Positions 32,401 to 35,400 of a stretch of DNA of 64,000 nt are shown piece after piece. Position numbers: made by a program. The DNA is taken from NCBI RefSeq assembly GCF_056712565.1, contig NZ_CM160072.1, one strand, 5' to 3'. Position 1 is the stretch's first letter. Every line of letters begins with the position of its first letter.

Positions 32401-35400
32401 GCTCAATCTCCGATTGCGACATGCCGGAGTTAATGGCTGAAAGCTCTGTTGCCGCCGCTTCAATGGTATCACCAGCTAAAACAACAGGGCTGGATGTTGC
32501 TGAAATTATGAGTGCCAGTAAAGCTACGTTTACAGTTTTCATTCATTTTCTCTTGTTCAAAATAAGTCGCATTGATGTTTCTATAAGAAACAAATAATAT
32601 TGTTTTAAGAAATAAACTGCGTTGCAATTTGATCGAAATCTACGCCGCCATTTGTGTGATGTAAAGCGCATTTTTGTCTTGTTTAAGCGTAAATACCACC
32701 AATAAGAAACAAAAATAGTTTCTTTTATAAATAAAAAAGGAAATTATTTCGTGCTCTTTCAATGTAAAAAAGAGTAAAGACTTGTTTTGATAAGCGAAAT
32801 AATTTCTGTTTCTGGACTAAACGTGAAGCGGTTCCTGATGTGTGCTAAAATGCGTTTCTTTGATAAATCTCAATTTTTAAGAGGTTTACGCTAGGCAGGA
32901 AAATTTAAATGAATGAATTTGAGAAGATTTTTAATGAAATGAATCTGGACCGGGCATTGCTACCGATCCTTTTTCGTTCGAACCGGTCAACAGTGTGGAA
33001 ATATTTAAGTGGCGATAGTACGGCTCCTGCCTCAGCTATGTCACTGATTATGCTGTTGCAGTTAATCCAGAAACGAAACCCCGATCTGTTAGCCGAATGG
33101 TTAACGCTTTCTGATTTCACCATTCCGCCAGAAGTTTACCTGGACCAACCTGATTACTGGAAAGGGTGGGTGTATACCCAACACAAGGTCAATAAAAACG
33201 TCCTGGAATATCTAAAAAAACACTATCCGGATGAAGACCAAAAAAGTATGGGTAAAGGCCGGGAAGAGTAATTTTGCCTCTACTCGGCTATATGCCGGAT
33301 GCGGCGCAAGCGCCTTATCTGGCCTACGATTCGGGCATATTTTGTAGGCATGATAAGACGCGTCAGCGTCGCATCAGGCGATGACCGCACGGATGATCAG
33401 CGTTATCCCTTCTATCGCAATGACTTCAACATGCGTACCTGCACCGAGATCCTCGCTGGCGCTGACAGGCCATGAACTGTCACCGACGCGCATATGACCG
33501 CGCCCGTTGACCAGCGGAGATTCCAGAACAAAACGTCGGCCAATCAACTGCTGCCCGCGCTGGTTTAAATGACTGTCGCTGTGCTTTTGTTCGCGCACCC
33601 GCCGCGACAACCATTTCCACCACAGCCAGGCGGCGAGCAGCGTCAGGACGGCAAACATTACCCCTTGCCACTCCCAACCCAGCGGCAGCAACCAGACCAC
33701 CAGACCGGTAATCACCGCTGCCACGCCGCTCCACAACAGATAACCATTGCCGCCCAACATCTCGGCTGCCAGCAGCAAACCGCCGAGACTTAGCCAGAAA
33801 ATATGTGGATGAACGACCATTAACTCCATCATGGCTGAGTCCGTTTGTTGGCGCTGTCTTTCACCAGCTCAGCAATCCCGGCAATCGACCCCATCAGGCT
33901 GCTGGCCTCTAATGGCATCATCACCACTTTGCTGTTACTGGACGAACCGATCTGCTGTAACGCTTCGGTGTATTTCTGTGCGACGAAGTAGTTCACCGCC
34001 TGAATATCACCGGAGGCGATGGCTTCAGACACCATTTTGGTGGCGCGGGCTTCTGCTTCAGCGGAACGTTCACGCGCTTCAGCCTGTAAAAACGCCGACT
34101 GACGTTCGCCTTCCGCTTTCAGGATTTGTGACTGTTTTTCACCTTCGGCTTTGAGGATTTCCGCCTGACGGATCCCTTCCGCTTCAAGGATGTAAGCGCG
34201 TTTGGTACGTTCCGCTTTCATCTGCGCGTTCATTGAAGAGATAAGCTCTGCGGGCGGGCGCACATCACGAATTTCGATACGGGTGACTTTAATCCCCCAC
34301 GGGTTGGTGGCCTCATCGACAATATGCAGCAGACGCGAGTTAATGCTGTCGCGCTGAGAGAGCATTTCATCAAGTTCCATTGAACCCAGCACGGTACGAA
34401 TGTTAGTCATGGTCAGGTTGATGATCGCCAGCTCCAGATTGCTGACTTCATAAGCCGCGCGCGGCGCGTCAATCACCTGAATAAAGCACACGGCGTCGAT
34501 GGTAACGTTGGCGTTATCTTTCGAGATAACTTCCTGGGAAGGGATGTCGAGCACTTGCTCCATCATATTGATCTTGCGACCAATGCGATCCATAAAGGGC
34601 ACCACCAGGCTTAGACCTGGCTGTAACGTTTTGGTATAGCGACCAAAGCGTTCTACCGTCCATTGATAGCCCTGCGGCACGATTTTGACGCCCGCGCCGA
34701 CAATGACCAGCGCGACAAAAATGAGAATCGGGATAAAGATAAGCATCGGAAAAACCTCCTGTTGTACCGTCCATAATCAGCAAAATTGCTGCTTGATTAA
34801 ACAAATTATACCTGATTACTGAAAGAGAGTTCCCCCTTATTCCTGCGAAGGATAAACTGTTTTTAGTAAAAATCAGAAAAAGGGAACAGCGATGCAGGAA
34901 AATAGTCCTTTGCTTCAGCTACAAAACGTAGGATATCTGGCGGGTGATACGAAGATTCTTAATAACATCAATTTTTCGCTGCGTGCTGGCGAATTTAAGT
35001 TAATTACCGGTCCTTCTGGTTGTGGCAAAAGTACACTGCTAAAAATAGTTGCTTCATTGATCAGCCCAACCAGCGGAACGTTACTGTTTGAAGGTGAGGA
35101 TGTCAGCACACTAAAGCCAGAAATCTACCGCCAGCAAGTCTCTTACTGCGCCCAGACGCCGACGCTGTTTGGCGATACGGTATACGATAACCTGATTTTT
35201 CCCTGGCAGATCCGTAACCAGCAGCCTGACCCGGCCATTTTTCTCGATTTTCTTGAACGCTTCGCTTTACCGGACAGCATTTTGACGAAGAATATCGCCG
35301 AGCTATCTGGTGGTGAAAAACAACGCATCTCATTGATTCGTAACCTGCAATTTATGCCGAAGGTTTTATTGCTCGACGAAATCACCAGTGCGCTGGATGA

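What the first reader, a model, noticed from the sequence alone, without database searches (positions are those of the whole stretch)
32543..33271. AT-rich divergent control region with repeated GTTTCT/AGAAAC inverted repeats next to a small HTH-like ORF
The 366-bp region between the adhesin-like gene and the divergent 120-aa ORF is very AT-rich and holds at least two clear inverted repeats built from the same half-site: GTTTCT-ata-AGAAAC (32577-32591) and AAGAAAC-aaaaata-GTTTCTT (32704-32724). There is also a 12-bp direct repeat ataagaaacaaa (32583-32594 and 32702-32713) and a further gaaataatttc palindrome (32796-32806). The 120-aa ORF contains a stretch resembling a helix-turn-helix (RSNRSTVWKYLSGDSTAP) and is a candidate local regulator acting on these sites.
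Basis: seen in the sequence. Interest (0 to 1): 0.45.

Follow-up and report, generated by a model that had tools for sequence, protein, structure and literature searches.

The report
Adhesin-linked HTH regulator and its operators
The AT-rich spacer between a small E. coli surface-adhesin gene and a divergent 120-aa gene carries conserved 15-bp palindromic sites, and the 120-aa protein is predicted to be a DNA-binding helix-turn-helix protein, so this is most likely an uncharacterised but conventional local gene switch.

Summary
The window is E. coli. The region is O-island OI-29 of EHEC O157:H7, inserted between cueR and ybbJ and present in 1415 of 5426 complete E. coli genomes.

**Repeats.** GTTTCT/AGAAAC occurs 6 times in the 366-bp, 30%-GC spacer, against 0.37 expected. 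The underlying unit is a 15-bp palindrome, GTTTC-N5-GAAAC. It occurs four times, plus one decayed copy.

**Position.** One site lies in the predicted adhesin 5' leader. Two lie upstream of the predicted adhesin promoter. Two bracket the predicted promoter of the 120-aa gene.

**Conservation.** Among nine Escherichia alleles, 29% of spacer columns vary but only 1 of 40 half-site positions does. Orthologous spacers in other genera carry 1-5 such sites, several at matching positions.

**Verdict.** This is probably a dedicated local regulator with its operators. Binding and its sign are untested. It is a new member of a known kind.

The parts
32543..32908 (.). Divergent control region (366 bp, 30% GC) between the YadA-like adhesin gene and the 120-aa gene
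   Evidence: The pairing and a spacer of about 310-410 bp are kept in orthologues.
32577..32591 (.). Operator O1, the perfect palindrome GTTTC-TATAA-GAAAC. Its centre is about +46 from the predicted adhesin transcription start, so it lies in the 5' leader.
   Evidence: The left half is invariant in 9 Escherichia alleles amid variable flanks; the right half has the single variable core position, 32588.
32696..32710 (.). Decayed operator O2' (CCACC-AATAA-GAAAC). Only the right half, AGAAAC 32705-32710, is intact. Orthologues have near-complete or complete palindromes here, e.g. GTTTCTATTGGAAAC in L011.
32718..32732 (.). Operator O2, GTTTC-TTTTA-TAAAT (8/10 to the palindrome), about -95 from the predicted adhesin start
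   Evidence: The GTTTC core is invariant in Escherichia while the spacer to O2' varies.
32808..32822 (.). Operator O3, GTTTC-TGGAC-TAAAC (9/10). Its centre is about -43 from the predicted start of the 120-aa gene.
   Evidence: GTTT is invariant in all 7 distant orthologues.
32854..32868 (.). Operator O4, GTTTC-TTTGA-TAAAT (8/10). It overlaps the predicted transcription start of the 120-aa gene.
   Evidence: The block CGTTTCTTTGATAAATCTCAATTTT is conserved across genera.
32637..32665 (-). Predicted sigma-70 promoter of the adhesin gene: -35 TTTACA (32665-32660), 17-bp spacer, -10 TAGATT (32642-32637)
   Evidence: Consensus scan. Both hexamers sit in the two best-conserved blocks of the spacer. 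The -35 is invariant, and the -10 keeps TAnnnT in all 7 orthologues. Neither varies within Escherichia. No transcription-start data were available.
32843..32851 (+). Predicted extended -10 promoter element (TGcTAAAAT) of the 120-aa gene
   Evidence: Read from the sequence. Conserved as TG-n-TA(A/T)(A/C)AT in orthologues. Inference only.
32909..33271 (+). [not shown]
31526..32542 (-). [not shown]
30818..31440 (-). [not shown]
   Evidence: Equivalent small ORFs follow the adhesin gene in L004 and L009/L010; L005 has only lipoprotein-like fragments.

Best explanation

In this window there are four usable operators and one decayed one.
- O4 overlaps the regulator's own predicted transcription start.
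- O3 sits at about -43 from that start.
- O1 sits in the adhesin 5' leader, at about +46.
- O2 and O2' sit about 75-95 bp upstream of the adhesin start.

The likely outcome is autoregulation of the regulator gene together with coupled control of the adhesin promoter. I favour repression or autorepression, because operators overlap a start site and lie downstream of one.

Shown by computation: the repeats, their conservation, the gene pairing, the purifying selection and the predicted HTH fold. Inferred: the promoters and start sites, dimeric binding, that this protein and not a host factor reads the sites, and the sign of regulation.
For: **Motif excess**
- GTTTCT/AGAAAC occurs 6 times against 0.37 expected, with 0 of 5000 shuffles reaching 6.
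- GTTTC-N5-KAAAY gives 8 strand matches in 64 kb against 0.68 expected, with four sites in this spacer.
- GTTTC/GAAAC is about 4-10-fold enriched in 9 of 10 spacers that adjoin a YadA-anchor gene, 10 of 12 spacers tested overall.
- Spacers of seven orthologues at 61-77% protein identity (L004, L005, L007, L009, L011, L012 and E. coli) carry 2-5 sites at 8/10 or better, with recurrent positions at about -46..-51, -182..-210 and -298..-328 from the regulator ATG. L014 and L015, at 43-48% identity, have one each, which is not above chance.

**Constraint**
- In nine Escherichia alleles 105 of 366 spacer columns vary, but only 1 of 40 half-site core positions does (hypergeometric P about 1e-5).
- The spacer between O2' and O2 varies while the half-sites and their spacing do not.

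**The protein**
- AlphaFold2 gives pLDDT 90.2 and pTM 0.78.
- Family members hit MqsA_antitoxin (2.4e-5), Xre-like-HTH (3.7e-5), HTH_3 and HTH_26.
- dN is 0 with dS 0.02-0.31 within Escherichia.

**Gene pairing**
- The gene lies divergent from a YadA-anchor or TAA-like gene in 9 of the 10 family clusters whose upstream flank was recovered, in Escherichia, Pseudocitrobacter, Symbiopectobacterium and metagenomic contigs. This holds down to 32% protein identity.

**Hints of co-variation**
- Subfamilies with a changed recognition helix lack GTTTC and carry other repeated words: GAACA five times in L018, and CTTCAWTGG three times in L030.

**Expression**
- z0638, gmrA and z0640 are all expressed in DMEM (RPKM 20, 96 and 44) and all fall to 0 on HeLa attachment (PMC5826968 Table S3). 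That fits a shared control region.
Against: - The window protein reaches no Pfam, NCBIfam or PDB sequence threshold by itself. The first AlphaFold2 run, with 11 sequences, was poor, at pLDDT 58.
- The promoters are consensus predictions without start-site data.
- O2 and O4 match only 8/10. The palindrome model was derived from the same data it is tested on.
- In EHEC, deleting z0640 gave no motility or fliC/motA phenotype, and no other phenotype was examined (PMC5826968).
- A factor shared by Enterobacterales hosts could equally explain the conservation of the sites.
- Two orthologues at 43-48% identity (L014, L015) have only one site at 8/10 or better, which is not above chance.
Confidence: 0.6

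Rival explanations
1. [not shown]
For: - The spacer is 30% GC in a 52% GC genome. From general knowledge, this is the typical substrate of H-NS silencing of acquired adhesin genes.
- Expression of the adhesin gene responds to temperature, pH, osmolarity and host contact (PMC5826968), which is typical of global regulators.
- Site conservation alone cannot tell a host factor from the island's own factor.
Against: - The sites travel with the cassette into different chromosomal positions and genera, always alongside the HTH gene.
- Subfamilies with a different recognition helix have different repeated words.
- A discrete 15-bp palindrome with sharply conserved 5-bp cores and free spacers looks like a dimeric HTH operator, not a degenerate AT-tract site.
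- I could recall no E. coli regulator whose consensus has this orientation and spacing. That rests on memory only.
Confidence: 0.22
2. The 120-aa protein is an orphan or degenerate type II antitoxin (HigA/MqsA-like) or an Aca-like phage regulator, sitting next to the adhesin gene by accident. The repeats would then be its autoregulatory operator only.
For: The best sequence and fold matches are antitoxin and Aca HTH domains: MqsA_antitoxin and Xre-like-HTH, HigA2, MqsA, Aca2 and Aca1, and 8qnl, an Xre/MbcA/ParS antitoxin.
Against: - There is no co-directional partner gene. REP elements and the convergent ybbJ follow the ORF.
- There is no phage or CRISPR context.
- The pairing with an adhesin gene recurs in 9 of the 10 clusters whose upstream flank was recovered.
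- Operators also lie on the adhesin side of the spacer.
Confidence: 0.08
3. The repeats act at the RNA level, as a structured 5' leader or repeated AGAAAC words bound by an RNA-binding factor. Alternatively, the spacer is an invertible phase-variation switch bounded by the 11-bp inverted repeat 32538-32548 / 32907-32917.
For: - O1 and, in other genera, two or three sites 22 bp apart lie in the predicted adhesin leader.
- A perfect 11-bp inverted repeat flanks the spacer.
Against: - The leader folds no better than shuffled sequence (z = -0.23).
- There is no Rfam match in the spacer.
- Half of the sites lie outside any predicted transcript leader.
- The 11-bp repeat is not conserved, even within Escherichia.
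- No recombinase gene is nearby.
- 1413 of 1415 genomes align with at least 80% of the query in one place, and all 39 full-length rows listed are single collinear pieces in the same orientation.
Confidence: 0.04

Closest known systems
O-island 29 (z0638-z0639/gmrA-z0640) of EHEC O157:H7 (Yang et al. 2018, PMC5826968)
   Same: It is the same locus. The paper's deletion and cloning primers map exactly onto this window: OI-29 is 30815-33382, z0638 is the lipoprotein gene, gmrA is 31526-32542, and z0640 is the 120-aa ORF. The island is described there as widespread in pathogenic E. coli.
Controller (C) proteins of restriction-modification systems (C.AhdI, C.Esp1396I, C.BclI)
   Different: There are no restriction-modification genes. 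The half-site sequence differs. Further operators lie on a divergent target promoter. The C-terminal helical extension is absent from C proteins. The functional resemblance is untested.
HigA2 / MqsA-type antitoxin HTH domains and Aca2
   Same: These are the best fold and profile matches. They are dimeric HTH proteins that bind palindromic operators in their own promoters. Aca2 is about the same size, with an N-terminal HTH and a C-terminal helical part.
   Different: There is no toxin or anti-CRISPR partner gene and no zinc-ribbon domain. The partner here is a divergently transcribed adhesin gene.
MrpJ-type regulators encoded in fimbrial operons of Proteus mirabilis (from my own knowledge, not tested here)
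   Same: Both are small HTH proteins encoded beside an adhesin gene, presumed to couple adhesin expression to other surface functions.

Membership tests
XRE / Cro-C1 helix-turn-helix DNA-binding domain | Compact helical bundle with the HTH at helices 2-3 | tested here: met
   [not shown]
XRE / Cro-C1 helix-turn-helix DNA-binding domain | Sequence match to a curated HTH model above its threshold | tested here: not met
   The window protein scores 13.5 bits to MqsA_antitoxin against a cut-off of 30. It has no NCBIfam hit and no significant PDB sequence hit. Some family members reach E = 2e-5 to 3e-4 for MqsA_antitoxin, Xre-like-HTH, HTH_3 and HTH_26.
XRE / Cro-C1 helix-turn-helix DNA-binding domain | Sequence-specific binding to a palindromic operator | not testable with these tools
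   Candidate operators GTTTC-N5-GAAAC are conserved next to the gene. Binding itself needs EMSA, footprinting or ChIP.
Type II toxin-antitoxin antitoxin (HigA/MqsA type) | Cognate toxin gene adjacent in the same operon | tested here: not met
   The window has no co-directional neighbour; REP elements and convergent ybbJ follow the ORF. There is none in L004, L005, L007, L009, L014, L015 or L018. The Xre-RES pair in L011 is a separate module.
Anti-CRISPR-associated (Aca) regulators | Located next to an anti-CRISPR gene in a phage or mobile element | tested here: not met
   The context is chromosomal, between housekeeping genes, and the neighbours are an adhesin and lipoprotein module. There is no meaningful PHROG hit.
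[not shown]
   Pfam YadA_anchor at E = 4e-12, 46.4 bits against a cut-off of 22.7, covering the last 60 residues. There are C-terminal matches to the EmaA and Vomp autotransporter models. RefSeq names it a YadA family autotransporter adhesin. The N-terminus MKTVNVALLALIISATSSPVVLA|GD reads as a signal peptide, which is my inference from the sequence.
Invertible promoter switch (fimS type) | Conserved terminal inverted repeats, a nearby recombinase, and both orientations seen in genomes | tested here: not met
   The 11-bp repeat is not conserved. There is no recombinase ORF. 1413 of 1415 genomes have at least 80% of the query in one place, and all 39 full-length rows listed are single pieces.

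The most novel reading that the evidence does not exclude
Probability: 0.15. Interest if true: 0.6.

Novelty: new member of a known kind. Interest (0 to 1): 0.42.

Why it matters

**A conflict with the literature.** The protein published and reviewed as the transcriptional activator GmrA has the sequence features of a secreted trimeric autotransporter. The only protein in the island with a predicted DNA-binding fold is its unstudied neighbour. That affects how the reported motility phenotype should be read.

**Limits.** Mechanistically the system is conventional, an HTH protein plus palindromic operators. It does not open a new kind of biology.

Tried and rejected
**Chance or low complexity.** Rejected by shuffles and by conservation.

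**RNA element in the adhesin leader.** The fold z-score is -0.23. The only Rfam matches are sub-threshold REP-like naRNA4 hits downstream of the ORF.

**Invertible switch bounded by the perfect 11-bp inverted repeat 32538-32548 / 32907-32917.** The repeat is not conserved even within Escherichia. There is no recombinase. No inverted orientation appears among the listed genomes.

**Toxin-antitoxin or Aca module.** There is no partner gene.

**Link to the fliA promoter, the reported GmrA target.** No GTTTC-N5-GAAAC site with up to 2 mismatches occurs in the 1.4 kb around the fliA promoter.

**CRP-like reading of TGTGATGTAAAGCGCA.** This block is better explained as the -35 region of the adhesin promoter, because the paired -10 block is conserved at 17 bp.

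**Sequence-only identification of the protein.** Pfam, NCBIfam, PHROGs and PDB searches with the single sequence gave nothing significant. The first structure prediction, from 11 close sequences, was unusable at pLDDT 58. Adding remote homologues from the 1.84-billion-protein scan fixed it.

**afdb50 fold search.** Unavailable.

**Distant family members.** P0034 and P0036 lie on contigs too short to show neighbours. P0039 sits in a different, mobile-element-like context.

Full report
**Where this is**

The window is Escherichia coli. Positions 31000-33400 are 100% identical to several B2-type strains (ZJ3920, SF-468 and APEC O1-like strains). Between the convergent housekeeping genes cueR (30407-30814, + strand) and ybbJ (33374-33832, - strand) lies an insert that K-12 lacks, from my own recollection. 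It holds four genes:
- a 67-aa gene (30818-31021, -);
- a 140-aa lipoprotein gene (31018-31440, -);
- a 338-codon YadA-family trimeric autotransporter gene (31526-32542, -);
- a divergent 120-aa gene (32909-33271, +).

REP-type repeats follow the 120-aa gene. The spacer plus the 120-aa gene is found in 1415 of 5426 complete E. coli genomes, always once and always chromosomal. Carriers include O157:H7, ST69 and ST95-type strains.

**Checking the observation**

The spacer 32543-32908 is 366 bp and 30.3% GC, against 51.9% for the window.

GTTTCT/AGAAAC occurs six times, at 32577, 32586, 32705, 32718, 32808 and 32854. Dinucleotide-preserving shuffles give 0.37 on average, and none of 5000 reached six. 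Because the hexamer was chosen after looking, I also counted every hexamer in ten orthologous spacers. AGAAAC is the most frequent of all (40 occurrences, in 9 of 10 spacers), ahead of pure A/T words.

**What the repeat unit is**

I aligned all 57 GTTTC/GAAAC occurrences from nine orthologous spacers. The hexamer is usually followed, five bases later, by (G/T)AAA(C/T). The unit is therefore a 15-bp palindrome, GTTTC-N5-GAAAC.

In the window there are four such sites:
- O1, 32577-32591, perfect;
- O2, 32718-32732, 8/10;
- O3, 32808-32822, 9/10;
- O4, 32854-68, 8/10.

The pattern GTTTCN5KAAAY has 8 strand matches in the 64-kb window against 0.68 expected, and four of the six distinct sites are in this spacer.

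In other genera the same place holds two adjacent palindromes about 22 bp apart, for example GTTTCCATTAGAATG and GTTTTTATTGGAAAC in Pseudocitrobacter, or GTTTCTATTGGAAAC in L011. In E. coli each has kept one good half, and the two good halves face each other.

**Conservation**

Nine Escherichia alleles were compared: B2, O157:H7, ST69, E. whittamii, Escherichia sp. E1V33 and others. The spacer varies at 105 of 366 columns. Variation is concentrated on the adhesin side, where two allelic classes exist. Only 1 of the 40 half-site core positions varies (hypergeometric P about 1e-5). The spacer between O2' and O2 changes freely while its length stays fixed.

The same gene pair occurs in Pseudocitrobacter, Symbiopectobacterium and several metagenomic contigs whose proteins are 61-77% identical.
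- GTTTC/GAAAC is enriched about 5-10-fold over shuffles in each of these spacers.
- Each carries 2-5 sites at 8/10 or better, with recurrent positions at about -46 to -51, -182 to -210 and -298 to -328 from the regulator start codon.
- In several genera the adhesin-proximal sites form a direct series at 22-bp intervals, at 35, 57 and 79 bp from the adhesin ATG.

**Promoters (predicted only)**

The two best-conserved blocks of the whole spacer are AATCTACGCC and TGTGATGTAAAGC. On the minus strand they read as a sigma-70 promoter for the adhesin gene: -35 TTTACA, 17 bp, -10 TAGATT. The -35 is invariant, and the -10 keeps TAnnnT in all seven distant orthologues. That places the adhesin transcription start near 32630. 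O1 is then at about +46 in an approximately 88-nt leader, and O2'/O2 are at about -75 to -95.

On the plus strand, TGcTAAAAT (32843-32851) is a conserved extended -10. It places the start of the 120-aa gene near 32858. O4 then lies over the start and O3 is centred at about -43. These start sites are inferences, since no transcript-end data were available.

**The 120-aa protein**

It is a real gene. Within Escherichia the first 66 codons have dN = 0 with dS 0.02-0.31. The protein is identical in strains whose spacers differ substantially.

The family is very small. There are 21 clusters at 90% identity among 5.8 billion proteins. A profile search finds 24 representatives among 1.84 billion. Only four of about 100,000 species-representative genomes carry it.

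No Pfam, NCBIfam or PDB sequence match is significant for the window protein. The best is the HTH part of MqsA_antitoxin at E = 0.08. Several members do reach E of 2e-5 to 3e-4 against MqsA_antitoxin, Xre-like-HTH, HTH_3 and HTH_26.

An AlphaFold2 model from 11 close sequences was poor, at pLDDT 58. With 21 sequences that include the remote homologues it reached pLDDT 90.2 and pTM 0.78.

N25, R26, S27, K31 and Y32 are invariant in the GTTTC-associated subfamily.

**Gene pairing**

Neighbours could be read for 13 family clusters. Three contigs were too short to show the upstream flank (P0034, P0036, P0025). In 9 of the remaining 10, the small gene is divergent from a YadA-anchor or TAA-like gene across a 310-410-bp spacer. 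This holds down to 32% protein identity (P0027).

The cassette sits at different chromosomal positions: cueR/ybbJ, qmcA/fetA, near cnoX and near nrdAB. It therefore moves as a unit. The remaining cluster, P0026, has an 835-bp gap and no adhesin gene upstream. A more distant member, P0039, lies in a mobile-element-like context.

Two subfamilies with an altered recognition helix lack GTTTC and carry other repeated words. PRNTIFNY (L018) has GAACA five times. PRATLWKY (L030) has CTTCAWTGG three times. This is weak evidence, but it points towards co-evolution of protein and site.

**Mechanism proposed**

**What is known about this locus**

A literature search on locus tags found that the insert is O-island 29 of EHEC O157:H7 (Yang et al. 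2018, PMC5826968). Mapping that paper's primers onto the window gives these assignments:
- z0638 is the lipoprotein gene;
- z0640 is the 120-aa gene;
- z0639, named gmrA and presented as a transcriptional activator that binds the fliA promoter, is the YadA-like gene. Its expression primer begins ATGAAAACTGTAAACGTAGCTTTA, which encodes MKTVNVAL.

That protein has a signal-peptide-like N-terminus and a coiled-coil stalk. It has a YadA anchor at E = 4e-12, above the Pfam threshold. I cannot judge the experiments, but the sequence features are those of an outer-membrane adhesin.

**Rivals and rejected ideas**

A host factor or H-NS reading the sites remains possible (0.22). An orphan antitoxin or Aca-like protein is unlikely, because there is no partner gene and the adhesin pairing recurs. 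An RNA element is not supported (fold z = -0.23; no Rfam match). An invertible switch is also not supported: the flanking 11-bp repeat is not conserved, there is no recombinase, and no inverted orientation appears among the listed genomes.

**Verdict**

In kind this is an ordinary HTH-plus-operator module. It is nevertheless an uncharacterised family with a consistent and, as far as I could find, undescribed association with short trimeric autotransporter genes. It also exposes a probable misassignment in the literature on this island.

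Noticed in passing
[not shown]
   Followed up: yes
window 32096-32098 (- strand codon 149): In this strain the adhesin gene carries an in-frame TAA stop where APEC O1 has CAA. RefSeq flags it as a pseudogene with an internal stop in ZJ3920. The control region and the HTH gene stay intact.
   Followed up: yes
window 32538-32548 and 32907-32917: A perfect 11-bp inverted repeat (TTCATTCATTT / AAATGAATGAA) embeds both start codons and brackets the whole spacer. It is not conserved in other Escherichia alleles or genera, so it is probably coincidental.
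   Followed up: yes
window 32740-32750 and 32796-32806: Two GAAAT-N-ATTTC palindromes lie 56 bp apart (GAAATTATTTC and GAAATAATTTC) and form a 17-nt, 88% inverted repeat with each other. They are only partly conserved between genera, and their role is unknown.
   Followed up: partly
window 32760-32790: The block CAATGTAAAAAAGAGTAAAGACTTGTTTTGATAAG is highly conserved and contains no GTTTC site. On the minus strand TTTACA-N16-TAATTT could be a second adhesin promoter, or the block could be a site for another factor. It is unexplained.
   Followed up: partly
window 32443-32640; alignment A6: Escherichia strains carry two clearly different allelic classes of the adhesin N-terminus and leader region, while the 120-aa protein is identical across them. 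This suggests recombination or diversifying selection on the adhesin side only.
   Followed up: partly
window 30818-31440 (- strand): A lipoprotein gene and a 67-aa membrane-protein gene follow the adhesin gene with overlapping stop and start. Intact equivalents are present in Pseudocitrobacter (L004) and L009/L010; Symbiopectobacterium (L005) has only lipoprotein-like fragments. They may be an export or assembly helper pair for the adhesin. The lipoprotein weakly resembles TraV and secretion-chaperone lipoproteins (E = 2e-4 to 5e-3).
   Followed up: partly
window 33257-33417: REP-type repeats (sub-threshold Rfam naRNA4 matches on both strands) fill the gap between the 120-aa gene and ybbJ, at the right edge of the island.
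   Followed up: no
window 6183-6197: This is the only other perfect GTTTC-N5-GAAAC palindrome in the 64-kb window (GTTTCTGGCAGAAAC). It lies inside a 125-aa ORF (6002-6379) and is probably chance.
   Followed up: partly
L030 490-790 and L018 3693-4000: Spacers next to distant family members with altered recognition helices carry different repeated words: CTTCA(A/T)TGG three times in L030, and GAACA/TGTTC five times in L018, including AAGAACAT-tta-ATGTTCTT. These are possible subfamily-specific operators.
   Followed up: partly
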